Shown here in pieces: positions 1,420-61,473 of a stretch of 64,000 bases of DNA. A model generated the notes under the pieces. It made no database searches and was not told the origin of the DNA. It saw nothing but the letters and a program-made list of their open reading frames with translations. The position numbers were made by a program, and so were the translations under genes. Origin of the DNA: an uncultured Candidatus Saccharibacteria bacterium (lineage in GTDB: Bacteria; Patescibacteriota; UBA1384; XYA2-FULL-43-10; 1-14-0-10-43-13); the NCBI GenBank assembly GCA_964406145.1, contig CAYOQP010000001.1:7706-71705 (forward strand), in the 5' to 3' direction. The first letter of the stretch is position 1. Every line of letters starts with the position of its first letter.

Positions 1420-1752
1420 TCATGGAGCCCCCTGTGCGCTGCCGACTTCTTTTTCGGTTCGTTCTTTTTCTTGCTGGATCTTTTTGAGTAGCTCCATCTT
1501 GATCTCATAATAGGCGTTATCTTCGAAGAAGAAATACCACGCCCAGATGAAACAAAAGAGCCAAGCAAGACTCGGAGACCTTTGGCAAAATGCGGCCCAG
1601 AGAGACCATAACCATGCCACAAGGACGACGATTCTCACAATCTTGTGAGAAATGGTGACTAGTTTCAGATCCAGTTCAGGCGGAATATGCATAACAGAAT
1701 TACCTCCAACGAAACATGTTATTGCTATACCACTTTTTAACATTATTCGCAA
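1420..1752 (-). CDS. Small hypothetical membrane protein, two predicted TM helices and a charged C-tail. The true start may be the internal MHIPPE.
   Basis: ORF in the 450-nt divergent region between pgk and hydB. Hydrophobic segments VVLVAWLWSLWAAF and LAWLFCFIWAWYFFF. Followed on its own strand by hairpin GGGGCTC-TTCATG-GAGCCCC (1411-1430) plus a T-run. Confidence 0.3.
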   Translation of the reverse strand: MRIMLKSGIAITCFVGGNSVMHIPPELDLKLVTISHKIVRIVVLVAWLWSLWAAFCQRSPSLAWLFCFIWAWYFFFEDNAYYEIKMELLKKIQQEKERTEKEVGSAQGAP

Positions 1753-1802
1753 CTTCTCTAATTAGTTCAAAAGGGATAAAATAGGATTATTATGGAGGGA
1801 AA

Positions 1803-3543: not shown

Positions 3544-4287
3544 ATGCAAAACAAAGAAACAATTAATGATTTTATACCCAAGAAAAAATTAGCTATTTTT
3601 TCCTTGACCTCTTGTGAAGGTTGTCAGTTCGAAATGCTAAGCTGTTATGAGGATTTTGAAAAAATCTTAAAATTTTATGACGTTGTAAATTTTCGTCTAG
3701 GTCAGGAAATAAATTTACCCGGACCATTTGATGTTTCAATAGTCGAAGGCAACCCCGATGGTGAAAAACAGGAAAAATTATTAAAAGAAATCCGCAAACA
3801 CACTAAATTAGTCATTGCTATAGGCGCTTGTGCTCACCTTGGCGGCATCCAATCAGAACGAAATCATCAACCCAAAAAACTTATAGATAAAGAAAAAACC
3901 AAAACAGTCGCCGACGTTATCAGGGTAGAATATATCATTCCTGGTTGCCCGATCAACAGATTTGAGCTTTATGATTGCTTAATGGACGTTTATTGGGGCA
4001 AAATTTTTCGTCTACCAGACCTAGCTGTTTGCTTCGAATGTCGTCAAAATGAAAATCCCTGCCTTTTGAAACAGAAAAAACTTTGTCTGGGACCAATTAC
4101 TCGAGCTGGATGCGATTCTGTCTGTGTCAACAGTGGTGAGGCCTGTCTGGGCTGTCGCGGCACGATTCCAAATCCGAACATCAAGAAGCTAAAACAAATT
4201 TTAGGAGCAAATTTTTCAGAAAAAGAGATTGATAATTTTATGACCATATACGGTACAAGTAAAGATTTAGAGGCAAATTTACAATGA
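3544..4287 (+). CDS. hydD: [NiFe] hydrogenase small (delta) subunit
   Basis: 247 aa. N-terminal LTSCEGCQFE proximal-cluster cysteines, then GACAHLGGI and GCPI motifs typical of NuoB-like or group 3 small subunits. Starts 1 nt after the hydG stop. Confidence 0.8.
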   Translation: MQNKETINDFIPKKKLAIFSLTSCEGCQFEMLSCYEDFEKILKFYDVVNFRLGQEINLPGPFDVSIVEGNPDGEKQEKLLKEIRKHTKLVIAIGACAHLGGIQSERNHQPKKLIDKEKTKTVADVIRVEYIIPGCPINRFELYDCLMDVYWGKIFRLPDLAVCFECRQNENPCLLKQKKLCLGPITRAGCDSVCVNSGEACLGCRGTIPNPNIKKLKQILGANFSEKEIDNFMTIYGTSKDLEANLQ

Positions 4288-5531
4288 ACGAAGCAGTCCC
4301 AAAAATTGAAGGCCACGCCGCTTTTTACTCTCATTTGAAGAATGGCCATGTTGATAAAGCCCAGCTAATTGGTTTAGAGAATGATCGTTTTGTCGAGAAA
4401 ATACTGTTTGGACGAAAATATTTTGAAGCCCCGATCATTACTTCACGTATCTGCGGAATATGTCCGACAATTCACAACATCACTTCAATAAAGGCGATCG
4501 AGGCGGCTTGCGGAATTGTGCCATCGTCTCAGACCAAGAAACTTCGAGAGCTAATGCTTTGTGGCCAGATGATACAAAGTCATTCTCTCCATCTCTACCT
4601 TTTAGTCGCGCCAGATTTTGTTGGAGCAAGCTCTTCATTTGAATTACAAAAAACTCATCCGGAATTATTCAAAAATGCCATCGAGCTAAAAAAATATGCT
4701 GACAAAATCATTGAAACAATCGGCGGACGAGCAGTCCATCCTATTGCCAGTGTCCCAGGCGGATTCAAGTCCTATCCAGAGAAAAAAGAACTGGAATTCT
4801 TAGCTGAATCAGCTAAACAGGTAGAAGAAATTGCCGCCAGAACTCTACGCCTTTTTGCTAGCTTTGGCTATCCGACAATAGAGCGAGAGATTATTTATAG
4901 CTCACTTCATTCAGATGGGGAATATGCTTTTTATGATGGAGATATTTGGACCTCGGCTGGCGACCTATTTAAGGCCGAGGAATATAACAGTTATATTTAC
5001 GAAGAGATTAAACCATACACTCATGCAAAGTTTGGGACTCTTAAGGGCAAGGAGATCATGGTTGGGGCAATGGCTAGATATAATCAAAACCACAGTCACT
5101 TCAATAGAAAAACCAAAGAAATTATTTCTGAATTAGGAATTGTTAACAAATTCGATAATCCATTCAATAATATTTTGGCCCAAGCAATCGAGAACTACTA
5201 TTTCGTTACTTTGTCTGCTGAAATTATTTCTAATTTATTGAAAAATGGCATTAAAAAAGAACATATTTTACCACCGAGAAGGTTCGGCATTGGGACTGGT
5301 GTCTGCGAAGCACCTCGTGGAACCTTGTTTCATCACTACGAGCTAGACGAGGAAGGCTTTATTACAAAATGTGATATTATCACACCAACGGTGCAAAGTT
5401 TGCCAGCCTTAGAACACGACATGAAGAAAATGGGGCCATTGCTCAAAGAGGCCGATACCGAAGAAAGAAACAGACTAATCGAAATGTTAATACGTGCTTA
5501 TGATCCTTGTATCACCTGCGCCACACACTAG
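4284..5531 (+). CDS. hydA: [NiFe] hydrogenase large (alpha) subunit, group 3b-like
   Basis: 415 aa. N-terminal Ni-binding L1 motif RICGICPTIH and C-terminal L5 motif DPCITCATH, after which the ORF stops. Overlaps hydD by 4 nt. Confidence 0.9.
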   Translation: MNEAVPKIEGHAAFYSHLKNGHVDKAQLIGLENDRFVEKILFGRKYFEAPIITSRICGICPTIHNITSIKAIEAACGIVPSSQTKKLRELMLCGQMIQSHSLHLYLLVAPDFVGASSSFELQKTHPELFKNAIELKKYADKIIETIGGRAVHPIASVPGGFKSYPEKKELEFLAESAKQVEEIAARTLRLFASFGYPTIEREIIYSSLHSDGEYAFYDGDIWTSAGDLFKAEEYNSYIYEEIKPYTHAKFGTLKGKEIMVGAMARYNQNHSHFNRKTKEIISELGIVNKFDNPFNNILAQAIENYYFVTLSAEIISNLLKNGIKKEHILPPRRFGIGTGVCEAPRGTLFHHYELDEEGFITKCDIITPTVQSLPALEHDMKKMGPLLKEADTEERNRLIEMLIRAYDPCITCATH

Positions 5532-5570
5532 GCTCTTTCAAATAATGTAAATCAGTAATAAAATATTTTT

Positions 5571-6455
5571 ATGAATGTTATCGAAATAACAAAATTAACA
5601 AAATATTATCTTGGCAAGAAAGTCTTGGGTATAAAGGATCTTAACCTTGAAGTTAAAGAAGGCGAAATTTTCGGTTTCATTGGTCCAAATGGTGCGGGCA
5701 AATCTACCACCATTAGACTTCTTCTAGATTTTATCCGGCCGACATCTGGAAATGCTAAAATATTTGGCCAGGATATTAATATCAAGTCAGTAGAAATTAA
5801 AAAACAGATCGGCTATTTGCCTGGAGAGATCTTCCTGGAAGACAATATAACAGGCAAAGAATGCCTAGATTACTACAAGGGCTTCAAAGAAAATGTTGAC
5901 GAAAAGTATCTCGATAGTTTAATAAAGCGTATGGGCCTAAGCCTGTCCAAGAAAGTCAGAGATTATTCGAAAGGAAATAAACAAAAACTGGCGATAATCT
6001 TGGCATTGATGCACAAACCGAAATTATTAATTCTTGACGAACCAACTAGCGGCCTTGATCCATTAAATCAACATGAATTTTTTGAAATTTTGAAAGAAAC
6101 AAAAAAAGAAGGCGTGACTACATTTCTGTCGACCCACATCCTTGATGAGGCTAATCGAATTTGTGATCGCGTCGGCATTATCAAATCAGGTAAGTTAATC
6201 GCTATTGAGGACATCGATGAATTTAGGACGAAGAATATTCGCGATATACATATCAAAACCTCCGAAACTATTCCCTCTTCAGTATTGAATACAGCCGGTA
6301 TTACTAAATCAGAGAAAACTGAAACGGGATATCACCTATCAATCGTCGGCCCAGATGCTCAAATCTTAAAAGAGATACTCAAATATTCAGTCGAAGATAT
6401 CGACATCGAAAAACCAACGCTAGAAGAGATATTTATTAGGTTTTACAAAGATTAA
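5571..6455 (+). CDS. ABC transporter ATP-binding protein (ABC-2 subfamily)
   Basis: Walker A GPNGAGKST, signature YSKGNKQKLAI, Walker B LLILDEPTSGLD. Confidence 0.85.
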   Translation: MNVIEITKLTKYYLGKKVLGIKDLNLEVKEGEIFGFIGPNGAGKSTTIRLLLDFIRPTSGNAKIFGQDINIKSVEIKKQIGYLPGEIFLEDNITGKECLDYYKGFKENVDEKYLDSLIKRMGLSLSKKVRDYSKGNKQKLAIILALMHKPKLLILDEPTSGLDPLNQHEFFEILKETKKEGVTTFLSTHILDEANRICDRVGIIKSGKLIAIEDIDEFRTKNIRDIHIKTSETIPSSVLNTAGITKSEKTETGYHLSIVGPDAQILKEILKYSVEDIDIEKPTLEEIFIRFYKD

Positions 6456-6456
6456 T

Positions 6457-7251
6457 ATGATCAACATCATAAAATACAATTTAAGAAAACAGTTTAAAAG
6501 CATCGCCATATACTTAGTCGCGCTGGTTGGATTTGCATTAATGTATATATCGCTATTTCCCTCTATGAAAAAGATCGACATCGAAGCGATGATGGCACAG
6601 ATGCCCAAAGAATTCTTAGGTTTTTTGGGGGAAGGTGGCGCTGCTAGCTACGGCAAGATTGAAGGATATCTCTCTGGTGAATTTTTTTCATTCTTCTTCA
6701 TACTCTTGGTTGGCTTTTATGTTTCCTCAGTAGCAGGATCAGCTATTGCCGGTAAAATTGAAAAAAGGGTAATGGATTTTGACCTCTCGCAACCAATTTC
6801 AAGATCAAAAAGGCTAATTTCTGAGACACTAGTTGCAATGTTTTATTCATTTATAATTGTCGGAGTTGTCTGTCTTTCGACTAAGTTATTGTGTCTAGCA
6901 TTTGATATATCGATATCAAGCAAAGGATTGTTATTTATGACAATTATTGGCACACTCTTCGCCTGGGCTCTATATGGGATAGCAATATTCATTTCAAGCA
7001 TCACGAGGTCCAAAATTGCAGTCTCTGGTATAACCGTATTCATCACGCTTGCCTCTTATATTTTCTACGCTTTATCACTTGCCGTTGAGAAAATAAAGGA
7101 TTATGGCAAATACAGTCTGTACAACTACTACGATCCACAAAAAATCCTCTCGAAATCAGAAATAAGCCCCGAACAATGTCTCGTCTTCCTTGCTATTTTT
7201 GCTGTAGGCACAGCAATGGCAATGATTATTTTTAACAAAAAAGATACATAA
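6457..7251 (+). CDS. ABC-2 type transporter permease
   Basis: 264 aa polytopic membrane protein, about 6 hydrophobic helices. Starts 2 nt after the ATPase stop. Confidence 0.6.
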   Translation: MINIIKYNLRKQFKSIAIYLVALVGFALMYISLFPSMKKIDIEAMMAQMPKEFLGFLGEGGAASYGKIEGYLSGEFFSFFFILLVGFYVSSVAGSAIAGKIEKRVMDFDLSQPISRSKRLISETLVAMFYSFIIVGVVCLSTKLLCLAFDISISSKGLLFMTIIGTLFAWALYGIAIFISSITRSKIAVSGITVFITLASYIFYALSLAVEKIKDYGKYSLYNYYDPQKILSKSEISPEQCLVFLAIFAVGTAMAMIIFNKKDT

Positions 7252-7284
7252 AAAAAAATAACCTCGAGAGAGGTCATTTTTTTA
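7252..7284. terminator. Bidirectional rho-independent terminator between the convergent ABC permease and hypC
   Basis: A-run, then hairpin ACCTC-GAGA-GAGGT (7261-7274), then TTTTTTT. Confidence 0.5.
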
Positions 7285-7303
7285 AAATATATTCTAACAG
7301 TAA

Positions 7304-7537
7304 TCAATCGTGTCGTTCACAAGCCATCTCTTCATGAGTCTTGATAAACTCTAGGTTTTCTTCGGCTTCTTTTTCCGAAATTTTAGACAGCGCTCGGCCA
7401 TCATGCATCAATATCCAATCTCCTTTCTTTACCTCGGGAGCCAAGGAAATGTCTGCGATATATTCTTTACCATCATATTTAAAATAAGCTTTTTGTTCTT
7501 CAATTTTAATAATTTTTCCGGGAATTGCCAAACACAT
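7304..7537 (-). CDS. hypC: [NiFe] hydrogenase maturation chaperone HypC/HupF
   Basis: 77 aa beginning MCLAIPGKI, the invariant HypC N-terminus. Its ATG directly abuts the gap stop codon (TAA-ATG junction at 7535-7540). Confidence 0.85.
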   Translation of the reverse strand: MCLAIPGKIIKIEEQKAYFKYDGKEYIADISLAPEVKKGDWILMHDGRALSKISEKEAEENLEFIKTHEEMACERHD

Positions 7538-8527
7538 TTATTTTTTGCCAATCAATTGTGCAAGATCAACTAATCTTTCGGAATAGCCCCACTCGTTGTC
7601 ATACCAAGCGATAACTTTGATCAAATTTCCGCCAACAACTTGAGTTAACGAAAGATCAACAATCGTAGAATTTTTATTGCCAAGCAAATCGCTAGAGACA
7701 ATCTGCTCATCAGTTGTGGCAAGTATTCCCATCATCTCTTCGTCTTCAGCGCCAACAAAAGCTTTATTAATCTCATCGACCGTAACTTCTTTCTTCAATA
7801 CTGCTGTAATATCAGCCAAAGAGACAACTGGAGTTGGAACTCTAACGGCTAAGCCATCAAATCGATCTTTCAAAGCAGGGATGGTTTTGAAAGCCGCCTT
7901 GGCCGCACCAGTAGAAGTCGGGACAATATTTAAAGCCGCCGCCCGAGCTCGACGCAAATCCTTGTGGGGACCATCAACCAAATTTTGGTCAGCAGTATAA
8001 GAATGAATTGTCGTCATTAAAGATTTCTCAATGCCAAATTTTTCTTCTATGACTTTCATGACGGGAGTTATGCAATTTGTCGTACAAGATGCGTTAGAAA
8101 CAATATCCTCACCAGCATATTTATCAGCATTGACACCGATTACATACATCGGCGTATCGTCCTTGGGTGGCGCTGACATGACAACTTTTTTTGCCCCTGC
8201 TTTGATATGAGATTTAGCATCTTCTTGCGTTAAGAAATGTCCAGTACATTCAAGTACAACATCAATACCAAGCTCTCGCCAAGGCAACTTGGCCGGCTCC
8301 TTCTCCGCATATGCATGAATTCTTTTTTTATCAATAATTATATCGTTCTCGTCGAAACCAACCTCGTGAGACCAGATCCCATAGGCAGTATCGTATTTCA
8401 AAAGATGGGCCAAGGTCTCTGTTTCTGTCAGATCATTAATGGCTACAAGCTCAAGATCTTTACGCTCATAAATAATTTTTGCGGCCGCGCGACCAATACG
8501 TCCAAAGCCATTGATAGCAATTTTCAT
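7538..8527 (-). CDS. gap: Glyceraldehyde-3-phosphate dehydrogenase (type I)
   Basis: 329 aa. NGFGRIGR NAD-binding motif and the SNASCTTNC active site. Confidence 0.95.
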   Translation of the reverse strand: MKIAINGFGRIGRAAAKIIYERKDLELVAINDLTETETLAHLLKYDTAYGIWSHEVGFDENDIIIDKKRIHAYAEKEPAKLPWRELGIDVVLECTGHFLTQEDAKSHIKAGAKKVVMSAPPKDDTPMYVIGVNADKYAGEDIVSNASCTTNCITPVMKVIEEKFGIEKSLMTTIHSYTADQNLVDGPHKDLRRARAAALNIVPTSTGAAKAAFKTIPALKDRFDGLAVRVPTPVVSLADITAVLKKEVTVDEINKAFVGAEDEEMMGILATTDEQIVSSDLLGNKNSTIVDLSLTQVVGGNLIKVIAWYDNEWGYSERLVDLAQLIGKK

Positions 8528-8536
8528 TTTTTCCTC

Positions 8537-9289
8537 TTAAGGTCTTAAACTTTTTGTTTCTGCCCAAATTTTACAAATTTTGATAAATTCAGCACTTCTA
8601 ACGCTGGCGCTTCCGACTAAGACACCGTCGATCTCCGGACGTCCTGCGTATTCCTTGATGTTAGCCGAACTAACGCTACCTCCATACAATATTGGGGTTT
8701 CGGAATGGACCAGCTCTCTTAATCTTACAATGGCTTTAGCCACGTATAACGGATCGGCATTCTCATGTTTAGTCGTTGAAGTTATGGCCCAGATAGGCTC
8801 ATAAGCCACAACAATATTGCGATAATATTTCTTAGGTACTCCTCGTAGAGCTTCTTCGAGCTCTTTGACTGGCTGATTGAAATTAGTACTTTTGGTCTTC
8901 TCGCCGACACAAATAATTGGCACAAGCCCTGCTTTTAGAGCCGCCAAAACTTTTTCATTAACCTCAATATTGGTCTCACCAAAGTGCTCTCTGCGCTCTG
9001 AATGGCCAACAATAACATAATCTGAAACTTCTTTGACCATCAAGGGCGAAATTTCACCTGTGTAGGCTCCATCTGGCTCATAGAACATATCTTGAGCGCC
9101 CAAAACAGTCTTCCCACCACGTTTCAAAATGTCAGCGATTTCCGTTAACCACAAAATTGGAGGACAAATTATCACCTCAATGTCTTTGAGATCGGCAACA
9201 TTGTTTCTGACAGCAGTTGCGATAACATGAGCGTCAGCAACGCTTGTTACATACATTTTCCAGTTAGCAACGATAATAGAGCGTTTCAT
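8537..9289 (-). CDS. tpiA: Triosephosphate isomerase
   Basis: 250 aa. ANWKM, GHSERR and AYEPIWAI motifs. Confidence 0.95.
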   Translation of the reverse strand: MKRSIIVANWKMYVTSVADAHVIATAVRNNVADLKDIEVIICPPILWLTEIADILKRGGKTVLGAQDMFYEPDGAYTGEISPLMVKEVSDYVIVGHSERREHFGETNIEVNEKVLAALKAGLVPIICVGEKTKSTNFNQPVKELEEALRGVPKKYYRNIVVAYEPIWAITSTTKHENADPLYVAKAIVRLRELVHSETPILYGGSVSSANIKEYAGRPEIDGVLVGSASVRSAEFIKICKIWAETKSLRP

Positions 9290-9350
9290 TTCCCTCCAAT
9301 ATTATATTTGATCCGCTTGCCATCATTATACAATTTGATTGCAAATTTGG

Positions 9351-10595
9351 CTAGTTTTTGAAAATTCCCTTTCGATGCAATGTTCTATAATATGCGATGG
9401 CGAATCGGTGAGATTCATCACGGGCCGAGATGGCAATATCTTTGAGAGATTTTGTATGATTGAAATATTCAGCAATCTTTAAATCTCCGTAATGAAAATC
9501 ATTTTTTGATCTATCTGGTCCTTTGGAAATGGAAATAACTGGAATCGATATTTTTTTTGAATCAAGTACTTTTTTAGCGACATTGAGATGATTGACCCCT
9601 CCATCGATTATAATAAGATCAGGAAAGGGCCAATCATTGTCAAATCTCCTCATCAAAACTTCTTCCAGACGCTCGAGATCACTTTTCTGTTCGCCTTTGA
9701 TCTTAAATTTTCGATACTCATCGACGGATTTTTTGCCATCTTCAAAGACGATCATAGAGCCGACAGAGTATTTATCGCCAATATTTGAAATGTCATAACA
9801 TTCTATCCGCTTAAATGTATCTTCGTGTTTTTCGACAAAATCGTCTCTTAGACCTATCGCCACATCTGAGAGATGTTTCAAAGCCATCAATTGATTGCGG
9901 ATATTCGCCGCCATCTCAAAATTGCGATTTTTACTATAGTTCAACATCTCCTTTTCTAGAGACTTCATTACTTCGCCCTTGCGGCCCTTAAGGAAATTTT
10001 TGAGATATTTAATGTTTCTATTATATTCTGCCTTATTAACATAGCCGACACACGGGCTTGTACAGACCCTTATGTCGCCATAGATACAAGAGCGATTTTT
10101 CTTTTTATAGCTATTGAATTTTGTCTTGGCGCAATCTCTATAAGGAAAAACTTTACGCAAAAAACTCAATGATTTCTTAAGTAATTCTCCAGCTGGGTAT
10201 GGACCAAAATAAAAAGCATTTTTATCCTTCAAATCGACATTTTTAAATCGCTCAAGAGAGATGATCGGGAAATCTTCCTTCGAGATCTTGATCATCAGGA
10301 ATGATTTGTCATCTTTGAGACGAACATTGTACTTGGGTTTTAATTTTTTAATCTGCTCGGCCTCGAGAATCACTGCCTCAATCTCTGACTCTGTCTCGAT
10401 CCACTCAATATCAGTGGCCAACCGGACCATTTGCTCAATGGCTGGACCGCGTCCGAGATCACGCGGCACAAAATATTGCTTCAATCTGTTCTTGAGATTC
10501 TTGGCTTTGCCAATATACAAAATCGCACCTTTTTCATTGAGAAAGCGATAAACACCAGGAACAGCGGGTATAATTTTAGATTGCAATATATTCAT
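9351..10595 (-). CDS. uvrC: Excinuclease ABC subunit C family protein, short form apparently lacking the C-terminal (HhH)2 domain
   Basis: 414 aa. N-terminal GIY-YIG (GVYRF...ILYIGKAKNL), then Cys-rich and UvrC core, ending in the conserved RDESHRFAI..YHR motif. Confidence 0.7.
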   Translation of the reverse strand: MNILQSKIIPAVPGVYRFLNEKGAILYIGKAKNLKNRLKQYFVPRDLGRGPAIEQMVRLATDIEWIETESEIEAVILEAEQIKKLKPKYNVRLKDDKSFLMIKISKEDFPIISLERFKNVDLKDKNAFYFGPYPAGELLKKSLSFLRKVFPYRDCAKTKFNSYKKKNRSCIYGDIRVCTSPCVGYVNKAEYNRNIKYLKNFLKGRKGEVMKSLEKEMLNYSKNRNFEMAANIRNQLMALKHLSDVAIGLRDDFVEKHEDTFKRIECYDISNIGDKYSVGSMIVFEDGKKSVDEYRKFKIKGEQKSDLERLEEVLMRRFDNDWPFPDLIIIDGGVNHLNVAKKVLDSKKISIPVISISKGPDRSKNDFHYGDLKIAEYFNHTKSLKDIAISARDESHRFAIAYYRTLHRKGIFKN

Positions 10596-10649
10596 ATTTA
10601 CTATTATACAGTATCGGGGAACAGAGACATGATCTTTGTTCCCCGAAGG

Positions 10650-11204
10650 TTAGCGCCGGATTTTGGAATAGCGTTTCCTCTCGGCAAAGCGAGACTCGCC
10701 GATTCCGGTATCCGAGCGCAAGAAGTCGCCCATGACTCCAACGGATACCCCGAACATCTCACGCAGAACGTAGTAACTCGTGACCATGCCCTCGCCACGT
10801 CTCAGCTGCTCCATTTCGACAAGCACATAGTCGCGTAGCCTTTCGAGCTGATCCATGGGATACTTTTCCCAGCCTCTGGCGCGGAGCGGACCAGAGCGAG
10901 AAGTACCTTTGGGTTTAGCAGGCCCAGGCCGCGATGTCGGTTTCATCGGTTTGCCGGATCGAACTGCTGGCACATCATGCGGAAGGCCAGTGAGGCGCCT
11001 CCATTCCGGTTTCTCCGATTCTCTCAGTCGGGCCTCTAGTAGTCGAGCGACAAAAGCCGCATCCATGGCAAACTGTCTTGCCAGATCTTCGCATCCCGGT
11101 ATATACCGTCCAACTTTGATGCGTCGACGTACGAACTGCATCAAAGAATGACAAGCCTTGTCAGGATACTGCGAAAAGTCGGCGGATGTGTCTGTAGTAG
11201 TCAT
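10650..11204 (-). CDS. Hypothetical protein on GC-rich island 1, with a possible HTH segment
   Basis: 184 aa ORF, GC about 60% against an AT-rich backbone. Own SD GAGGAGG 11 nt upstream of the ATG. Upstream TTGAAA / ATAGTG promoter-like elements. Putative HTH CEDLARQFAMDAAFVARLL. No recognisable family. Confidence 0.4.
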   Translation of the reverse strand: MTTTDTSADFSQYPDKACHSLMQFVRRRIKVGRYIPGCEDLARQFAMDAAFVARLLEARLRESEKPEWRRLTGLPHDVPAVRSGKPMKPTSRPGPAKPKGTSRSGPLRARGWEKYPMDQLERLRDYVLVEMEQLRRGEGMVTSYYVLREMFGVSVGVMGDFLRSDTGIGESRFAERKRYSKIRR

Positions 11205-11272
11205 TCTTCGACATTCCTCCTCAAGATTTGTATTTGCACTATACCATGTTTTCTATTTTTTTCAAGGAGTTG

Positions 11273-11301
11273 TTGACTCTAATTAGTCTTTCTGGTAGTA
11301 T
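11273..11301 (+). promoter_or_regulatory. Sigma70-like promoter for the plus-strand island 1 gene
   Basis: TTGACT (11273-78), 17-nt spacer, TAGTAT (11296-301), in an AT-rich divergent intergenic region. Confidence 0.4.
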
Positions 11302-11357
11302 ACTTTCATGTTTTTGACACGCAAAAAAAAGCAAGACATCATTAAGTCATTCGGCTA

Positions 11358-11429
11358 CGGGCCAGCTTTTTAGTGCAGTACAAAAACGTGCGCTTGAAGG
11401 AACTGGCCTCCGGGCCAGATTTTTTTTTG
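11358..11429 (+). promoter_or_regulatory. Leader attenuator-like element with an intrinsic terminator hairpin, T-run, and a possible upstream anti-terminator copy
   Basis: CTGGCC-TCCG-GGCCAG hairpin (11404-11419) followed by TTTTTTTTT. The upstream segment CGGGCCAGC (11358-66) can pair alternatively with CTGGCC. It lies between the promoter and the SD of the 11499 ORF. Confidence 0.4.
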
Positions 11430-11498
11430 TTTATCCAGGGGAAAATTCCTACATCATTCCCTGTAATAGACAAAATACCTTGAGGAGGTACACACGTC

Positions 11499-11891
11499 AT
11501 GGTCACTGCTCTTTCGAGCCGCAACACCTTGGCGGGCAAAAAACCCGTCAGCATGACACCAGAAGAGTTGATCAGCCTGGTGGCGGAAGCACCGCTCCAG
11601 TGGTCAAGCTCGCACATCGCCGCTGCCACTATCCTCGGCTGTATGCTCGCGGAAGAAGGTGGCTTTGCCGACACGATCAAGCAGACGCCGCAAGCTCTCG
11701 CGAACATCGCCCGCTGTCGGCGCCTTCACCCCGGAGTTCGCGACACCGCCCTCCTGATCCTCACCCAGCACGAAGGAGAAGGGGCCACGGCCCCTGACAA
11801 CCGCTTTGCGCGGGGATTCGAGCGCCGCCAGAAGCTTCGGACCAAGAAGCCCAAGGCCTGCGGCGGGCCAGTTCCCTGCTTCATCCAGTAG
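11499..11891 (+). CDS. Hypothetical protein on GC-rich island 1
   Basis: 130 aa ORF, GC about 62%. Strong SD GAGGAGG 9-10 nt upstream of the ATG. Basic C-terminus. No recognisable family. Confidence 0.4.
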   Translation: MVTALSSRNTLAGKKPVSMTPEELISLVAEAPLQWSSSHIAAATILGCMLAEEGGFADTIKQTPQALANIARCRRLHPGVRDTALLILTQHEGEGATAPDNRFARGFERRQKLRTKKPKACGGPVPCFIQ

Positions 11892-30177: not shown

Positions 30178-31092
30178 TTACGATATTAAACTGGCGACTT
30201 CCCGAAGGTTGTTCCAGCCCTTTCGTAAACAAATAAAGTCGTGAGCGGTCAAATTGTTCCGCCTTTCGACAATAGAGAAATCTGCCTCGCCACTAGCATC
30301 AACCAGTAGATATAGGAGATCGCGATAGATCTCTTTGGAGACAGAGAGCATATCTTCGAGCGAACAAGGGATATCGCCCAAGATAGGCTCGTTCTCTACT
30401 CGGTGGTAGGTGGGACGACGACCGATTGGAGTAAACAGTTGGTGGCTTTGCCAACGAGAGTGTTCTCCCATTTTGGCCAAAACACGTCTAGCCTCGTAGA
30501 AGATTTCCTCCGCTGCGCCTCCGACCATAATCACTTCGTCCCAGTTTTCCGCCCCATCAACCTGGAGAGGACGGCGGCCGATCAGCGCAGAGAGTGGATC
30601 GCGCATATACCAAGCATGAGAAGCCATGTATTTAAGCGCTTCCCATCCGCCCCTGCGCTCAGCAAACTGCTTGATGCGGTCCCCTCCGTGCTGGGAAAGA
30701 TAGCTAGCCATTTCATCGATCATCAGCCACTCATCAGCCAATATCGGGCGATCGCGCAGGATTCGAACGGGCGCGTTGGGGTGGAAATTGGCGACATACG
30801 CTTCGAGGTATCGAATCGCTCGGTCGGCGAAATCCGCTACGAATGGCTCGAACCCCTGGCCAAGCAGAAGGGACGAATAGTTTTCCGCGAAATAGAATTC
30901 GACATCTGCTTTTGCTTTGTCATCAGCCATTTCACGAAGAAGTGCCAGAGCCGGTATAATATATGCAGGAAGCCGAACCGGCACCTCGCAGTTGGGATCG
31001 CAACCGAAACCGGTTACGATAATGGTCCTTCCGTTAAGACGGACAGGACGGGTATCCTTGGCGAAAAGGAATTTCGGGATGTTAAGGAGCAT
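30178..31092 (-). CDS. Hypothetical protein of unknown function. GC-elevated terminal gene of the yerC-like / dapF-like operon.
   Basis: 304 aa ORF, about 50-55% GC against about 35-40% in its flanks. SD GGGAGG 8 nt upstream of the ATG. Own terminator. No recognisable motif. The antisense frame is also open, consistent with high GC. Confidence 0.5.
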   Translation of the reverse strand: MLLNIPKFLFAKDTRPVRLNGRTIIVTGFGCDPNCEVPVRLPAYIIPALALLREMADDKAKADVEFYFAENYSSLLLGQGFEPFVADFADRAIRYLEAYVANFHPNAPVRILRDRPILADEWLMIDEMASYLSQHGGDRIKQFAERRGGWEALKYMASHAWYMRDPLSALIGRRPLQVDGAENWDEVIMVGGAAEEIFYEARRVLAKMGEHSRWQSHQLFTPIGRRPTYHRVENEPILGDIPCSLEDMLSVSKEIYRDLLYLLVDASGEADFSIVERRNNLTAHDFICLRKGWNNLREVASLIS

Positions 31093-31156
31093 CTGTTTTC
31101 CTCCCAGACAATCTCAAGCGTTAGCGTCTAACACTTGGTTTTTACCCAGGAAAAGA

Positions 31157-32029
31157 TTAAATTTCTAAAATATTTTCAGACAATATTTTCACTTCGCTCT
31201 CGACTGATATTTCCGATTTGCCTAAAAATATTTTTATTTTTTTTCCGCTTGGCTGAACAATCTCAAAGGATTTTTTGCCAGTAATTTTGCTTAATTGGTA
31301 AGCCAGGGCCACTGAAGCTGAGCCACAAGCTGTCTCGTAATAAATTGTATTGAGACAATTTACTCTGACTAATGGTAATATTTGGTAAGACCACCGATTT
31401 AATTTGCGGAAAGCCACAAAACCAGCTGCACCCCCCTGAGACAAATCCGGCAACTGCCGATAAATCTGATCAAATAAATCATTAAAACCCGCATTCTCAG
31501 CACTACTGAGGCCTTTATTCTGATCCGAAAATAATTTCTGAGCTGAAGGCGGCAGAATACTTAGATCGACAAGTATCTGTGAAATCCCAGTGAGAACGAC
31601 CCGAATACAATCGACAGCGAACGAGTCTAAAATCAACTTCTCTCCAGACAATTTTTGGATAATTTCGTAACCAAATTTCACCTTGACGCAGTAACTTCCA
31701 ATAAAGATATTGCTAACTTCCGCCTTGACTAAACTTGGTGATCCCGATGTTTTAAATATGACGGAAGATCTTCTAGACTTCAGGGCGATCAAAACTGCTG
31801 CACACCGAGTAGCGTTAACACAAAGCTCACCGTTGGCCATATTAAGATTTGGAATAATGCCACCAAAATTAACAAAACCAACCTGCTCAACTTTCATCCT
31901 TTGCACATATGGGTCAGCTAGAAGTTTTCTGGCCAAGCCAATCCGATCAGCAAAAGGAACTTTGGTCACAACTAGCGCGGTAATATTCCCTCCTGGATCA
32001 GCGATAATAAATTTGATTTTTTTCTTCAT
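31157..32029 (-). CDS. Diaminopimelate-epimerase-fold (DapF/PhzF superfamily) protein with a non-canonical active-site motif
   Basis: 290 aa. N-terminal FIIADPGGNITALV (DapF-like GxGNDF region). First Cys motif NGELCVNATRCA (DapF: CGNGxRC). Second Cys motif ETACGSASVALA. Confidence 0.5.
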   Translation of the reverse strand: MKKKIKFIIADPGGNITALVVTKVPFADRIGLARKLLADPYVQRMKVEQVGFVNFGGIIPNLNMANGELCVNATRCAAVLIALKSRRSSVIFKTSGSPSLVKAEVSNIFIGSYCVKVKFGYEIIQKLSGEKLILDSFAVDCIRVVLTGISQILVDLSILPPSAQKLFSDQNKGLSSAENAGFNDLFDQIYRQLPDLSQGGAAGFVAFRKLNRWSYQILPLVRVNCLNTIYYETACGSASVALAYQLSKITGKKSFEIVQPSGKKIKIFLGKSEISVESEVKILSENILEI

Positions 32030-33094: not shown

Positions 33095-33100
33095 TATTTT

Positions 33101-33510
33101 GTGTGGGCGCGACGGTAAGTCTTTTACCATGGCGCCCACAGAATACGGGGACCAATCACTAGTCACCCCCATTTCTGGCGACCGGCCTCTTCCCCTTGTT
33201 TGAACCCCTACTGGGCTCTTTTTTCTTCGACGAGAATCTACGAGTAAGCCGCCACCACCAAATTTGCCAGGTCTCGATCCGACTCACATCATTGTTGCCG
33301 GACTTCCAGGCTTTGGCCGACTGATAGCAGCCGATAAAGCGAGAGTCACCCTCTGTGATCTCAAGCTGCCAGCTACCAGCAAAGAATCGACTAACGCCTA
33401 GATAACTCCCGGCGGGGACTTTGGTGTTGCCATTTGACGAACAAGCCTCAGTCTCCTCTTCTCTTAAGTTAAGCAGAAAGTGTGCCATACCGACTCCTTC
33501 CACAAGACTG
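33101..33510. other. GC-rich (about 55-58%) non-coding stretch with strong hairpins; candidate structured RNA or decayed remnant of acquired DNA
   Basis: No credible ORF on either strand. The only ORF is a 114-aa W/R-rich minus-strand frame. Begins with the 9-bp stem TGTGGGCGC...GCGCCCACA. Composition contrasts sharply with the flanking 28%-GC spacer. Confidence 0.3.
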
Positions 33511-33564
33511 TGTCTTTAGAGACAATAACACAAGAAAAAAAGCTATTCAATCAAATAAATACCT

Positions 33565-33593
33565 TTGACAAAAATATAAAAAAATGTTATGAA
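33565..33593 (+). promoter_or_regulatory. Sigma70-like promoter for the GC-rich isomerase gene
   Basis: TTGACA (33565-70), 17-nt spacer, TGtTATGAA (33585-93). AGGAG SD at 33672-76, 7 nt before the GTG start. Confidence 0.45.
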
Positions 33594-33683
33594 AATAACA
33601 TTGTCCTAACCGGCAAGTACAATTACATACATGCCGATTGACCAAGAAAAAATCTACTTGGCAATTGGAACAGGAGCACAGAA

Positions 33684-35171
33684 GTGTTAAACACCCCCGC
33701 CGTTAATCTCGGCATCGTTGGCGTCAGCCGGGATTGCTTCCCGATCGAACTGACCCGGACCCGTCTCGGCCAGTTGGCCGAAGCCTGTGGCGACCATGCC
33801 ACCCCGTTCACCACGATCATCGAGAGCGAACGCGATGTCGCATCTGTCCTCAAAGAGGCGCATGATCTCGGCACCAACGCGATCGCGATCTATCTCGGCA
33901 ACTTCGGCCCCGAAGGCCCACTGTCCCTCCTCGCCGAAAAGTTCGGTGGCCCCGTCATGATCTGTGGCGCCGCCGAAGAGAGCATGCACACCCTGATCCA
34001 GGGTCGTGGCGATGCCTTCTGTGGCATGTTGAACGCGCACTACAATCTCGGACTGCGCCGGAAGCGCGTCCACACCCCGCAGAATCCCGTGGGCCTGCCT
34101 CACGAACTGGCGATTGAGATCGCCCACTTCATCAAGGTCGCCCGCGTCGCCCTCGGCATGAAAAGCCTCAAGGTCTTCGGATTCGGCCCGCGGCCCCAGG
34201 ACTTCCTGGCCTGCAACGCGCCGATTCAGCCGATCTACAACCTCGGCATCGAGATCATGGAGAACAGCGAGCTCGACCTCCTGAGGCTCTACAAAGCCGT
34301 CGATGAGAACGATCCTGAAATCGCAGTGATCGCCGAAGACATGGCTGCCGAACTGGGCCAGGGTAACACCTACCCCGACCTGTTGGCCAAGCTGGCCCGT
34401 TACGAACTGGCACTGTCCCGCTTCTTCGACGCCAACCTCGGCATGAGCAACTATGCCGTGATGGCCGACAAGTGCTGGCCGGCCTTCGAGGCCGAATTCG
34501 GCTTCGTCCCCTGCTACGTCAACAGCCGCTTCGCCAAGCGCGGCATTCCCATCGCTTGCGAAGTGGACGTCTACGGCGCGATCAGCGAGTATATGTGCCA
34601 GCTCGCGAGCCTCGCACCAGCGACCCTGCTGGACATCAACAACACCGCCCCGACCGATTTGTTGGCCAAGCTCGGCCGCAACTTCGATCCGGGCAACTTC
34701 TGGATGGGTTTCCATTGCGGCAATACCCCGTCCTGCCAGATGAAGAGCTGCGCTATGGCCTACCAGCTCATCATGAATCGTCTGATGGAAGGTGGCAACA
34801 CGCCCGACATCACCCGCGGTACCCTGGAAGGCCAGCTTCGCCCCGGCGCGGCAACGATCTTCCGCCTGCAAGGGACATCGGACAACTATCTGGCCAGCTA
34901 CATGGCGGAGGGCGAGATCGTCGATCTCGATCCCATGAGCTTCGGCGGCATCGGAGTCTTTGAGATTCCCGACTTCGCCCGCTTCTACCGCCACGTCCTT
35001 TTGAGTCTGCGTTTTCCGCATCACACCGCCGTGGCCTTCGACCACTGCGGCGAGGTGCTCTATGACGCGACGAAGATGCTCGGCCTCGCCAACATCTTCA
35101 CGCCGAACCCGGCGTCGATCCCCTACGAGCGCGAGAACCCGTTCTCCCTCGCCCGGATCAGCGGCAAGTAA
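33684..35171 (+). CDS. L-fucose/L-arabinose isomerase-family (COG2407-like) sugar isomerase, on GC-rich island 3
   Basis: 495 aa, about 62% GC, GTG start. N-terminal VNLGIVGVSRDCFP...AIYLGNFGPE pattern of FucI-like proteins. Central acidic metal-site candidates CEVDVYGA. Antisense frame fully open, a GC artefact. Confidence 0.5.
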   Translation: MLNTPAVNLGIVGVSRDCFPIELTRTRLGQLAEACGDHATPFTTIIESERDVASVLKEAHDLGTNAIAIYLGNFGPEGPLSLLAEKFGGPVMICGAAEESMHTLIQGRGDAFCGMLNAHYNLGLRRKRVHTPQNPVGLPHELAIEIAHFIKVARVALGMKSLKVFGFGPRPQDFLACNAPIQPIYNLGIEIMENSELDLLRLYKAVDENDPEIAVIAEDMAAELGQGNTYPDLLAKLARYELALSRFFDANLGMSNYAVMADKCWPAFEAEFGFVPCYVNSRFAKRGIPIACEVDVYGAISEYMCQLASLAPATLLDINNTAPTDLLAKLGRNFDPGNFWMGFHCGNTPSCQMKSCAMAYQLIMNRLMEGGNTPDITRGTLEGQLRPGAATIFRLQGTSDNYLASYMAEGEIVDLDPMSFGGIGVFEIPDFARFYRHVLLSLRFPHHTAVAFDHCGEVLYDATKMLGLANIFTPNPASIPYERENPFSLARISGK

Positions 35172-35192
35172 ACAACTTCGCCGACACAACAA

Positions 35193-35231
35193 AGCACCCC
35201 TCTCGGTTCCCGGGAGGGGTGCTCGCTTTTT
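35193..35231 (+). terminator. GC-rich rho-independent terminator after the isomerase gene
   Basis: CACCCCTCTCGG-TTC-CCGGGAGGGGTG perfect 12-bp stem, followed by CTCGCTTTTTA. Confidence 0.7.
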
Positions 35232-35233
35232 AT

Positions 35234-60633: not shown

Positions 60634-60656
60634 AGGCGGCCCGTCATGGGCCGCCT
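60634..60656 (-). terminator. GC-rich terminator hairpin overlapping the cdsA stop codon
   Basis: On the minus strand: AGGCGGCCC-ATGAC-GGGCCGCCT (9-bp perfect stem) followed by a T-rich tract. Confidence 0.5.
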
Positions 60657-61473
60657 AGAATCCGATCAAGCGGAAGAGAAGGTAAGCAACAGGAGCAGCA
60701 TAGATCATGCTGTCCAGTCTATCAAGCATTCCGCCATGGCCGGGGAAAATCCCTCCGGAATCCTTTTTGTGAAGATTCCGCTTCAGGAGCGATTCGACCA
60801 AGTCTCCGACCTGGCCAAAGACTCCAACGACTGGGCCCAATAGGACCAAAGTCGCTTTGTGTAGTAAGATGGCAAACACTGCCGCCATCAAGATCGCCGC
60901 TACGAAGCCAGCAACACAGCCGCCCACGGTCTTGCCAGCACTGATGTCTGGGCAAAGCTTGGCAGTCTGCAGTTTCCTGCCGATCAGGTAAGCGAAGATG
61001 TCTGTCGCCCAGATCGTAAAGAAAAAGGCGACCACGAGCATTGAGCCCGTACCGGTCTGAAAACCGAAGACAATACTCTCGCCCGGAATGGCACGGATTG
61101 CGGCGATAAAGCTCGGCAGTAATCCGATATACAGAACTAGCCTGACAGGATTGTCGGCCTTTAGGGCCAACTTACCCAGTACCAGTTCACCCCCAAGAGC
61201 CATCATAGTCACCAAAGCCGACAGGACAAGAACCACTTCGAAGCCACCAGTGATACAGGCATAACTAGTTGCATAAGCCGCAACGACAGTTATGACCGAG
61301 AACAACTTGATCGTCTCCGATTGACCTGCCATGTCGCAGTACTCGCTCACCATCATGACGACAGTGATGGCTATAAGAGCCAGAAAGAAATCTTGGTTAC
61401 CCAAGAATATTGATGCCACAGTTAGGGGGATCCCGATAACTGTGACGACTAATCTTGCCAGAAAAGTCTTCAT
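60655..61473 (-). CDS. cdsA: Phosphatidate cytidylyltransferase (CDP-diglyceride synthase), on GC-rich island 4
   Basis: 272 aa polytopic protein. C-terminal signature KRNLHKKDSGGIFPGHGGMLDRLDS. GC clearly elevated against both flanks. Confidence 0.85.
   Translation of the reverse strand: MKTFLARLVVTVIGIPLTVASIFLGNQDFFLALIAITVVMMVSEYCDMAGQSETIKLFSVITVVAAYATSYACITGGFEVVLVLSALVTMMALGGELVLGKLALKADNPVRLVLYIGLLPSFIAAIRAIPGESIVFGFQTGTGSMLVVAFFFTIWATDIFAYLIGRKLQTAKLCPDISAGKTVGGCVAGFVAAILMAAVFAILLHKATLVLLGPVVGVFGQVGDLVESLLKRNLHKKDSGGIFPGHGGMLDRLDSMIYAAPVAYLLFRLIGF

What the first reader, a model, noticed from the sequence alone, without database searches (positions are those of the whole stretch)
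33565..35231. Horizontally acquired-looking FucI/AraA-family sugar isomerase (62% GC) driven by a host-like AT-rich promoter and closed by a GC-rich terminator
The 495-aa ORF has FucI-like N-terminal signatures and is the most GC-rich element in the window. Its promoter (TTGACA / 17 / TGtTATGAA) and AGGAG SD are typical of the AT-rich host. Its terminator, a perfect 12-bp GC stem, is donor-like. A pentose or deoxyhexose isomerase gained by a minimal fermenter would widen its substrate range. No cognate kinase or aldolase is adjacent, so the pathway context is unclear.
Basis: partly seen in the sequence, partly recalled or inferred. Interest (0 to 1): 0.5.

Follow-up and report, generated by a model that had tools for sequence, protein, structure and literature searches.

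The report
Foreign sugar isomerase in CPR bacterium
A tiny-genome, AT-rich Berkelbacteria-like (CPR) bacterium carries a real, GC-rich pentose isomerase gene taken from a free-living high-GC bacterium; it is an ordinary gene transfer, notable mainly because public annotations call the gene on the wrong strand and so miss it.

Summary
Window 33684-35171 (+) is an intact 495-aa ORF with 61.7% GC and GC3 0.83, in a 41% GC genome. It has a host-type promoter, an AGGAG ribosome-binding site and a strong hairpin terminator.

The host is a Berkelbacteria-like CPR bacterium. Horizontal transfer is supported by three results:
- Relatives L086 and L087 have htpX and the MBL-fold gene adjacent, with no isomerase between them.
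- Composition and CAI are extreme outliers for this genome.
- The nearest non-CPR homologues come from Armatimonadota and Planctomycetota.

The transfer is not recent. Four or five diverged relatives carry the island, and dN/dS is about 0.18.

Mis-assembly is excluded, because independent assemblies reproduce both junctions at 100% identity. No araB or araD lies within roughly 95 kb, so the gene's role in this host is unresolved.

Public gene calls annotate the antisense 501-aa ORF instead. Interest is modest.

The parts
33095..33158 (.). Left edge of the inserted segment. It contains an inverted repeat (33099-33118 / 33124-33143) between the convergent MBL-fold gene and orf114, which looks like a bidirectional terminator.
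   Evidence: Inverted repeat I3, 20-nt arms, 85% complementary. Fold -26.8 kcal/mol, z -3.8. Relatives L086 and L087 have no isomerase or orf114 between the MBL-fold gene and htpX.
33159..33503 (-). orf114 (called as 109 aa, 33159-33488, in public records). A small orphan gene divergent from the isomerase, GC 0.52, function unknown.
   Evidence: Homologues are found only in three close relatives at 76-81% aa. A search of 1.84 billion representatives gave five hits and no domain. dN/dS is 0.13-0.26. No Pfam match. Absent from L086, L087 and L001.
33565..33593 (+). Sigma-70-type promoter: -35 TTGACA (33565-33570), 17-nt spacer, extended -10 TGtTATGAA (33585-33593).
   Evidence: Sequence. The hexamers and spacer length are conserved in L167, L166 and L001 while the spacer sequence varies. 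The consensus scanner does not report it, because the -10 lacks T at position 6.
33584..33601 (.). Perfect palindrome ATGTTAT-N4-ATAACAT overlapping the -10 element; a candidate operator.
   Evidence: Exact match in the window. At up to 2 mismatches the window has 3 sites against 0.4 expected. The palindrome is conserved in L001 and has one arm mismatch in L167. Function is inferred.
33634..33668 (+). Conserved hairpin in the 5' leader, ending 3 nt before the ribosome-binding site.
   Evidence: RNAalifold gives 12 pairs, with one compensatory U-A to C-G change in L167. The leader folds at -21.9 kcal/mol, z -2.9. No Rfam match. Only three sequences were available, so support is weak.
33672..33676 (+). 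Shine-Dalgarno AGGAG, 7 nt upstream of the GTG start.
   Evidence: Conserved in L001 and L167. 12 of 52 host genes have AGGAG or GGAGG upstream.
33684..35171 (+). Isomerase gene, 495 aa. It belongs to a distinct branch of the AraA/FucI superfamily and is predicted to be an L-arabinose (aldopentose) isomerase.
35193..35232 (+). Intrinsic terminator: a 14-pair hairpin (35193-35223) followed by a T-run, lying between the convergent isomerase and htpX genes.
   Evidence: L001 has an analogous hairpin of different sequence at the same place.
33687..35192 (-). Spurious 501-aa antisense ORF. Public records (JGI, NCBI, Logan) annotate this as a hypothetical protein in place of the isomerase.
   Evidence: Gene tables of the source contigs. 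It is present in the protein collection while the true product is not. No Pfam match. Its CAI of 0.578 is higher than the 0.515 of the true frame.

Best explanation
The ORF is a genuine, intact, horizontally acquired gene for an aldose-ketose isomerase. It belongs to an uncharacterised third branch of the AraA/FucI superfamily.

In free-living bacteria of many phyla this family sits in operons with ribulokinase (AraB) and L-ribulose-5-phosphate 4-epimerase (AraD). Its most likely reaction is therefore L-arabinose to L-ribulose. This is inferred from gene context and fold, not assayed.

A segment of about 2.1 kb (window 33095-35233) lies between the convergent 3' ends of an MBL-fold hydrolase gene and htpX. 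It holds the small orphan gene orf114, an AT-rich regulatory region, the isomerase and a terminator. It is absent from this site in the more distant relatives L086 and L087. The isomerase was present in a common ancestor of the window and L001 lineages of Berkelbacteria-like CPR bacteria. orf114 is absent from L001 and may be a separate addition. The donor was a high-GC genome (about 61-67% GC) of the Armatimonadota/Planctomycetota type.

The gene is transcribed from a host-type sigma-70 promoter. That promoter overlaps an operator-like palindrome and is followed by a conserved leader hairpin. Expression is inferred from conservation, not measured.

The gene has been kept under purifying selection through substantial divergence, yet it retains the donor's composition. 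Its high GC3 also creates the long antisense ORF that host-trained gene finders call by mistake.

No araB or araD lies within about 95 kb. Either the partner genes are elsewhere in the genome, or the enzyme serves a one-step interconversion whose product is used by another kinase or by the partner organism.
For: Real gene and family:
- Pfam PF02952, E 6e-20, and at least 8000 homologues.
- Predicted structure pLDDT 83.7, pTM 0.88.
- Foldseek top hits are all canonical AraA (TM 0.70, E 4e-21), followed by FucI.
- 128 of 132 residues that are at least 97% conserved in 192 non-CPR homologues are retained. These include E293, D295, D317, H344, H446 and H447.

Function from gene context:
- 51 of 74 loci have AraB and/or AraD within 3 kb on the same strand, and 27 have both.
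- These neighbours score above NCBIfam cut-offs: ribulokinase 736-772 bits against 428, and the epimerase 317-334 bits against 251-257.
- The closest Armatimonadota-type relatives (64-66% identity) have the order araB-araD-...-isomerase.

Host identity: SecA is 71-73% identical to that of Berkelbacteria and Patescibacteria MAGs.

Horizontal transfer:
- Empty site in L086 (htpX and the MBL gene 26 bp apart) and in L087.
- GC3 0.83 against about 0.35 in host genes.
- CAI is 7.7 sd below the host mean.
- Composition equals that of homologues in genomes of 61-67% GC, such as L170, L172 and L007.
- The CPR clade is sister to the Armatimonadota/Planctomycetota group in an NJ tree.

Age and selection:
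- The same locus architecture occurs in L167 (85% nt), L166 (82% nt), L001 (71% nt) and P0001.
- dN/dS is 0.17-0.19, with dS above 1.

Regulation: conserved promoter, palindrome, leader hairpin and terminator.

Not an assembly artefact: Logan contigs from runs SRR12261225 and SRR12261226 are 100% identical across both junctions.
Against: - No biochemical data exist for this family branch in anything I could find.
- A canonical AraA is also present in 6 of 74 loci (Thermoanaerobacterium, Pelosinus and a spirochaete). The FucI-like enzyme may therefore have a related but different substrate.
- The window and its flanks lack araB, araD and a sugar transporter.
- D338N and L339F, next to the invariant H344, depart from residues conserved in at least 97% of the family. 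They occur only in the window and in P0001.
- The donor clade is not resolved. The tree is neighbour-joining only, with short internal branches.
- No integrase, tRNA or direct repeats mark the insertion.
- The lack of compositional amelioration, despite dS above 1 between carriers, is unexplained.
Confidence: 0.72

Rival explanations
1. The enzyme is an isomerase of this superfamily but acts on a different sugar. Candidates are L-fucose or D-arabinose (FucI-like), D-xylose (like the predicted XylA-II), D-galactose to tagatose, or sulfoquinovose (SftI-like). In the CPR host it may have shifted specificity.
For: - Only the FucI C-terminal Pfam domain matches.
- There is a weak NCBIfam hit to the sulfoquinovose isomerase SftI.
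- FucI-family proteins have been predicted as alternative xylose isomerases (PMC2873477).
- A canonical AraA co-occurs in 6 of 74 loci.
- D338N and L339F lie near H344 in the window lineage.
- A PfkB kinase and a class II FBP/tagatose-type aldolase lie just beyond the window start.
Against: - The SftI score is 56.5 bits against a cut-off of 700.
- The partners in relatives are ribulokinase and L-ribulose-5-P 4-epimerase. No fuculokinase/FucA or xylulokinase hit passes its cut-off.
- The association holds both in distant phyla and in the closest clade.
Confidence: 0.2
2. The gene is a non-functional passenger: transferred DNA that the host does not use and that is on its way to decay.
For: No pathway partners or transporter nearby. 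Codon usage is very poorly adapted. Two substitutions fall at highly conserved positions.
Against: - The reading frame is intact in every carrier examined.
- dN/dS is 0.17-0.19 with dS above 1.
- 97% of family-conserved residues are kept.
- The promoter, leader and terminator are more conserved than synonymous sites.
Confidence: 0.06
3. The GC-rich segment is a chimeric mis-assembly that joins a high-GC organism's DNA into a CPR contig.
For: There is an abrupt compositional change at both edges.
Against: - Independent Logan assemblies of two sequencing runs are 100% identical across both junctions (L002) and the right junction (L003).
- Diverged relatives from other projects show the same joins: MBL-orf114-isomerase in L167 and isomerase-htpX in L001.
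- The AT-rich promoter is fused to the gene in all carriers where this region is covered.
Confidence: 0.01
4. The gene is ancestral to CPR/Berkelbacteria and was lost from relatives. Its unusual composition reflects selection, not foreign origin.
For: A second Berkelbacteria-labelled MAG (L004) also carries a homologue. Composition has not ameliorated over a long time.
Against: - The L004 copy is 85% identical to an Armatimonadetes protein and nests inside that clade, which indicates a separate acquisition.
- No isomerase was detected in any of the 80 CPR-type htpX loci.
- Only 1 of the best 80 loci kept from the species-representative genome scan was labelled CPR.
- Composition matches that of high-GC homologues.
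Confidence: 0.03

Closest known systems
Canonical L-arabinose isomerase AraA (EC 5.3.1.4; Pfam PF02610/PF24856/PF11762; e.g. E. coli 2hxg, Geobacillus kaustophilus 4r1o)
   Same: - Same operon partners (AraB, AraD) in relatives.
- Invariant acidic and histidine residues (E293-x-D295, H446-H447) align with AraA's E-G-D and H-H motifs in the profile alignment. That alignment is low-confidence.
   Different: - No significant sequence similarity: 12-16% identity, hhalign probability 0.4%, and no AraA Pfam domain.
- It co-occurs with a canonical AraA in a few genomes.
- In this window it stands alone, without araB or araD.
L-fucose isomerase FucI (EC 5.3.1.25; Pfam PF07881/PF07882/PF02952; E. coli 1fui)
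   Different: - It is about 100 residues shorter (495 aa against about 590).
- The N-terminal and central FucI domains are not detected, and no NCBIfam FucI model matches.
- In relatives, the only kinase and class II aldolase-family models whose cut-offs are passed are ribulokinase and L-ribulose-5-P 4-epimerase; L-fuculokinase and FucA models score far below theirs.
Other PF02952-only isomerases: predicted XylA-II (CAC2610; Gu et al. 2010, PMC2873477) and sulfoquinovose isomerase SftI (NCBIfam NF048012)
   Same: These are short FucI-like proteins carrying only the PF02952 signature. Their function was assigned from gene context, as a non-orthologous replacement of a classical sugar isomerase.
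   Different: The SftI model scores 56.5 bits against a cut-off of 700. XylA-II clusters with xylB, whereas this family clusters with araB and araD. No direct comparison with CAC2610 was possible.
Laterally acquired metabolic genes in Candidate Phyla Radiation genomes (a paper titled 'The rise of diversity in metabolic platforms across the Candidate Phyla Radiation' was listed but not read)
   Same: This is a single metabolic enzyme of foreign origin embedded among core genes of a reduced genome.
   Different: This case adds a documented empty site, retention of donor composition, a captured promoter, and a second independent acquisition in another Berkelbacteria-labelled MAG (L004).

Membership tests
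L-fucose isomerase FucI | Three Pfam domains (PF07881 N-terminal, PF07882 central, PF02952 C-terminal), about 590 aa | tested here: not met
   Only PF02952 matches (residues 343-469, E 6e-20), and the protein is 495 aa.
L-fucose isomerase FucI | Passes a curated FucI equivalog model | tested here: not met
   The NCBIfam scan returned only SftI, at 56.5 bits, and no FucI model.
L-fucose isomerase FucI | Gene context with fuculokinase and fuculose-phosphate aldolase | tested here: not met
   The neighbours in relatives pass the cut-offs only of the ribulokinase and L-ribulose-5-P 4-epimerase models. The window has neither kind of gene.
Canonical L-arabinose isomerase AraA | Pfam AraA_N, AraA_central and Arabinose_Iso_C domains | tested here: not met
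   None is detected in the window protein. A true AraA from locus L050 scores 226-278 bits on each of them. hhalign of the two families gives probability 0.4%.
Canonical L-arabinose isomerase AraA | AraA/FucI three-domain fold | tested here: met
   [not shown]
Canonical L-arabinose isomerase AraA | Operon association with araB and araD | tested here: inconclusive
   Met for homologues: 51 of 74 loci, plus the closest Armatimonadota loci. Not met in the window or its flanks.
Canonical L-arabinose isomerase AraA | Metal-dependent L-arabinose to L-ribulose activity | not testable with these tools
   This needs an enzyme assay. Candidate metal and catalytic residues E293, D317, H344 and H447 are invariant, but their roles are inferred.
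Sulfoquinovose isomerase SftI (NF048012) | Score above the curated cut-off (700 bits) | tested here: not met
   56.5 bits.
Horizontally acquired genomic islet | Atypical base composition and codon usage | tested here: met
   GC 0.617 against 0.409, and GC3 0.83 against about 0.35. CAI is 0.515 against 0.716 +/- 0.026.
Horizontally acquired genomic islet | Empty site in related genomes with conserved flanks | tested here: met
   L086 has C39-S41-LemA-tm117-HtpX-MBL-TrpR...LigA, with 26 bp between HtpX and MBL. L087 shows the same arrangement.
Horizontally acquired genomic islet | Phylogeny incongruent with the host | tested here: met
   The nearest non-CPR homologues are from Armatimonadota, Phycisphaerae and Planctomycetota. 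The tree is NJ only, and the donor is unresolved.
Horizontally acquired genomic islet | Mobility signatures (integrase, tRNA target, flanking direct repeats) | tested here: not met
   No tRNA in the window, no meaningful flanking repeats, and no integrase or transposase among the neighbours.
Sigma-70-type promoter | -35 and -10 hexamers at 16-18 nt spacing | tested here: inconclusive
   The -35 matches 6 of 6, the spacer is 17 nt and a TG extension is present. The -10 TATGAA matches 4 of 6 and lacks the final T, so the scanner omits it. Phylogenetic footprinting supports it. No transcription start data exist.
Intrinsic (rho-independent) terminator | G+C-rich hairpin followed by a T-run | tested here: met
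   35193-35223 has 14 pairs, then CGCTTTTTAT. Energy -28.7 kcal/mol, z -4.6.

The most novel reading that the evidence does not exclude
The isomerase is not just a stray pathway fragment. It is a stand-alone, regulated enzyme that Berkelbacteria-like episymbionts have acquired at least twice from Armatimonadota-type donors (the window lineage and L004). They keep it without araB or araD, perhaps to convert a host- or environment-derived pentose or hexose into a ketose handled by a non-cognate kinase such as the PfkB kinase next to the class II aldolase. Selection would also preserve its GC-rich synonymous sites. A related, more likely point: the family would be an experimentally uncharacterised, non-orthologous L-arabinose isomerase that is widespread across bacterial phyla.
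Probability: 0.15. Interest if true: 0.55.

Novelty: new member of a known kind. Interest (0 to 1): 0.33.

Why it matters
- Annotation. Gene finders trained on the AT-rich host pick the antisense ORF, so the isomerase is absent from public protein catalogues for this organism. Metabolic reconstructions of CPR genomes may systematically miss GC-rich foreign genes in this way.
- Evolution. This is a clean, well-bounded example of gene gain in a reduced genome. It has an empty site, several diverged carriers, a captured promoter and no compositional amelioration. It also shows apparent repeated uptake of the same enzyme family by Berkelbacteria-labelled genomes.
- Biochemistry. The family is a likely non-orthologous L-arabinose isomerase found in Thermoanaerobacterium, Clostridium, Pelosinus, Atribacterota, Bacteroidota, Planctomycetota and others, and it appears to be uncharacterised.

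None of this changes a major concept.

Tried and rejected
- Rfam, both gathering and permissive thresholds, found nothing in the window or the upstream region. No tRNA genes were found.
- Sequence searches of the PDB, with the single protein and with a profile, found no true relative. The one hit, ASCC1 at E 0.024, is chance.
- hhalign against canonical AraA was non-significant. Residue correspondences therefore rest on fold and invariance only.
- I asked whether the GC-rich upstream piece (33095-33520) is a remnant of a donor gene. There was no tblastx or blastn similarity to 80 homologue loci or to the htpX loci and no Pfam match. Its ORF is an orphan under purifying selection. The pseudogene idea was rejected; the function remains unknown.
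- No flanking direct repeats or att-like sites were found.
- The isomerase appeared to have lower synonymous divergence than its flanks (4-fold differences 0.14 against 0.38). This largely disappears with a bias-aware estimator (YN00 dS 0.57 against 0.55-0.64), so I make no claim of recent re-spread.
- Literature searches for a described 'alternative AraA' of the FucI family found only the XylA-II prediction and SftI.
- The afdb50 fold library was unavailable.
- DNA for P0001, the closest homologue, and for the JGI contig was not retrievable.
Full report
**1. What is in the sequence**

Window 33684-35171 (+) is an uninterrupted 495-codon ORF that starts with GTG.
- Its GC content is 0.617, with 0.60/0.42/0.83 at the three codon positions. 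The window as a whole is 0.409, and neighbouring genes have GC3 near 0.35.
- At scales of 500 bp and above it is the most GC-rich feature of the window. One 300-bp stretch at 11573-11872 is slightly richer.
- Its codon adaptation index, computed against the other genes of the window, is 0.515. The host mean is 0.716 with sd 0.026, so this is the lowest value in the window.

- Promoter: TTGACA at 33565-33570, a 17-nt spacer, then TGtTATGAA.
- Ribosome-binding site: AGGAG, 7 nt before the start.
- Terminator: a 14-pair hairpin at 35193-35223 followed by a T-run, at -28.7 kcal/mol and z -4.6.
- The simple promoter scanner omits the site because TATGAA lacks the final T.

**2. Which strand is the gene**

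The source contigs are a JGI contig (69 kb), an NCBI contig (101 kb) and Logan assemblies. In all of them a 501-aa 'hypothetical protein' is called on the minus strand (33687-35192), exactly antisense to this ORF.
- The antisense product has no Pfam match.
- The plus-strand product hits Pfam Fucose_iso_C at E 6e-20 and has thousands of homologues.
- The true product is not in the protein collection; its best hit there is 89% identical.
- The antisense frame has a higher host-referenced CAI than the true frame, 0.578 against 0.515. It also lies on the same strand as most neighbouring genes. Both facts plausibly explain the miscall.

**3. What the protein is**

- Only the C-terminal FucI domain is detected by Pfam.
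- NCBIfam gives only a far sub-threshold hit to the sulfoquinovose isomerase SftI, 56.5 bits against a cut-off of 700.
- Sequence searches of the PDB find no relative.
- An AlphaFold2 model built from 44 sequences has pLDDT 83.7 and pTM 0.88.
- Foldseek matches the model over its full length to canonical L-arabinose isomerases (TM 0.70, E 4e-21) and less well to L-fucose isomerases (TM 0.64).
- Profile-profile comparison with canonical AraA is not significant.

The protein therefore belongs to a separate sequence family within the AraA/FucI fold. It is not a member of either named family.

**4. Likely activity, from gene context**

A scan of species-representative genomes returned 80 loci from many phyla at 52-64% identity. 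I clustered their neighbouring genes.
- 51 of 74 loci have a ribulokinase and/or an L-ribulose-5-phosphate 4-epimerase within 3 kb on the same strand, often only 3-60 bp away. 27 loci have both.
- Representatives of these neighbours pass the NCBIfam cut-offs for AraB and AraD.
- Other recurrent neighbours are an AraR-like regulator, a sugar symporter or ABC transporter, a mutarotase and arabinofuranosidase-type hydrolases.
- The closest non-CPR relatives (64-66% identity, Armatimonadota-type contigs) have the order araB-araD-...-isomerase.

This supports an L-arabinose to L-ribulose isomerase that replaces the canonical AraA. There is one caveat: six loci also carry a canonical AraA, so the substrate could be a related sugar.

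A precedent exists for assigning pentose isomerase roles to PF02952-only proteins from context: the XylA-II prediction (PMC2873477). I found no biochemical characterisation of this clade.

**5. The host and the insertion**

SecA from the window is 71-73% identical to SecA from Berkelbacteria and Patescibacteria MAGs.

A metagenome scan with the neighbouring HtpX gave 80 loci.
- The closest is L086, a 413-kb contig whose length matches that recorded for the Berkelbacteria-labelled SecA hit P0142. It keeps the order C39-S41-LemA-tm117-HtpX-MBL-TrpR...LigA, with HtpX and the MBL-fold gene only 26 bp apart.
- L087 has the same arrangement, with an unrelated gap of about 330 bp.
- The window therefore carries about 2.1 kb (33095-35233) that these relatives lack. 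It lies between two convergent genes and consists of a hairpin, the orphan orf114, an AT-rich regulatory region, the isomerase and its terminator.
- No integrase, tRNA or flanking repeats accompany it.

**6. Not an assembly artefact, and not recent**

- Logan contigs assembled independently from runs SRR12261225 and SRR12261226 are 100% identical to the window across both junctions and across the right junction, respectively.
- Diverged relatives from other projects show the same joins. L167 (85% nt) has TrpR-MBL-orf109-isomerase. L166 (82% nt) ends in the promoter. L001 (71% nt) has the isomerase convergent with htpX. P0001 (89% aa) has the small upstream ORF.
- Between the window and L001, the isomerase has dN 0.21 and dS above 1, giving a ratio of 0.17-0.19. 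htpX shows similar values.
- The window protein keeps 128 of the 132 residues that are at least 97% conserved in 192 non-CPR homologues. The exceptions include D338N and L339F, next to the invariant H344. These two are shared with P0001 but not with L001.

**7. Origin**

- In a neighbour-joining tree of 197 sequences, the window, P0001 and P0002/L001 form one clade. That clade is sister to the group whose named members are from Armatimonadota, Phycisphaerae and Planctomycetota.
- The gene's GC, GC3 and 4-fold GC (0.62, 0.83, 0.87) match those of homologues in genomes of 61-67% GC, such as L170, L172 and L007.
- A second homologue lies on a 3-kb contig of a MAG labelled Berkelbacteria (L004). 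The gene has GC 0.52 and its flank 0.31. It is 85% identical to an Armatimonadetes protein and nests within that clade, which suggests an independent acquisition. The taxonomic label of L004 rests on binning only.

**8. Regulation**

Alignment of the upstream regions of four carriers shows the following.
- The -35 hexamer is invariant.
- The spacer is constant in length but variable in sequence.
- The extended -10 is conserved and overlaps a perfect palindrome, ATGTTAT-N4-ATAACAT (33584-33601).
- The leader contains a conserved hairpin (33634-33668) with one compensatory change.
- The upstream block is 81% identical to L001, against 71% for the aligned locus as a whole.
- L001 has a terminator hairpin of different sequence at the same place.

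These features argue that the gene is expressed and regulated in the host. They say nothing about a 'donor-like' terminator.

**9. What remains open**

- No araB, araD or sugar transporter lies in the window or in about 15-19 kb beyond each end. A PfkB kinase and a class II aldolase next to pgk look glycolytic. The physiological role in the host is unresolved.
- The window and L167 copies keep 4-fold GC near 0.88, although dS between carriers is large. The L001 copy has dropped to about 0.69. I have no tested explanation for this.

**10. Verdict**

This is a new member of a known kind: a laterally acquired metabolic gene in a CPR genome. It comes with a useful annotation lesson and a candidate non-orthologous L-arabinose isomerase family. 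Interest is modest.

Noticed in passing
window 33687-35192 (-): Public annotations (JGI, NCBI, Logan) call a 501-aa hypothetical protein antisense to the isomerase. As a result the real enzyme is missing from protein catalogues for this organism. This is probably a general risk for GC-rich foreign genes in AT-rich MAGs.
   Followed up: yes
window 33159-33503 (-): orf114/109 is a small orphan protein with relatives only in three close lineages plus one 49% homologue. It is under purifying selection (dN/dS 0.13-0.26), has no known domain, and is transcribed divergently from the isomerase.
   Followed up: partly
window 30178-32029; L166 1596-3167; L086 about 8500-11750: The interval between LigA and the TrpR-like gene is variable. 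The window has a GC-rich 304-aa protein with no Pfam match (GC 0.52) plus a CntK/histidine-racemase-like protein. The 82%-identical relative L166 has a radical-SAM protein plus a 149-aa protein instead. L086 has neither. This looks like a second hot spot of gene turnover beside the isomerase islet.
   Followed up: partly
window 10650-11204 (-) and 11499-11891 (+): Two more GC-rich ORFs (GC 0.55 and 0.63; the second has GC3 0.75) have no Pfam match and low host CAI (0.589 and 0.531). They are possibly further foreign genes. The 300-bp GC maximum of the whole window (0.663) lies here.
   Followed up: no
window 5575-5592: A one-mismatch copy of the promoter palindrome (ATGTTATCGAAATAACAA) overlaps the start codon region of an ABC-transporter ATPase gene (5571-6455). 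Three sites at up to 2 mismatches occur in the window, against 0.4 expected. This is possibly a shared regulator site, or chance.
   Followed up: no
L004 1677-3068: A MAG labelled Candidatus Berkelbacteria (Bin_65_7) carries a separate copy of the same isomerase family. The gene has GC 0.52 in a flank of GC 0.31, and it is 85% identical to an Armatimonadetes protein. This suggests repeated uptake of the enzyme. The contig is only 3 kb, and its taxonomic assignment rests on binning.
   Followed up: partly
L019, L022, L027, L050, L069, L079 (loci of homologues): In Thermoanaerobacterium, Pelosinus and a spirochaete, the FucI-like isomerase co-occurs with a canonical AraA in the same arabinose locus. 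The two may not be simply redundant.
   Followed up: partly
window residues 338-339 of the isomerase (about 34695-34700): D338N and L339F replace residues conserved in at least 97% of 192 homologues. They lie just upstream of the invariant H344 and occur only in the window and its 89% relative P0001. This could be a specificity change or drift.
   Followed up: no
window 1803-5531 and 235-9289; beyond the window start: NiFe-hydrogenase-like genes (Fer4, FAD/NAD-binding, Oxidored_q6 and NiFeSe_Hases domains, plus HypC) lie next to glycolytic genes (pgk, tpi, gap). Just outside the window are a class II FBP aldolase and a PfkB kinase. This is consistent with a fermentative CPR lifestyle.
   Followed up: no
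window 60655-61473 (-): A CdsA-like cytidylyltransferase gene (Pfam CTP_transf_1) is compositionally elevated (GC 0.51, GC3 0.60, CAI 0.594) compared with its neighbours.
   Followed up: no
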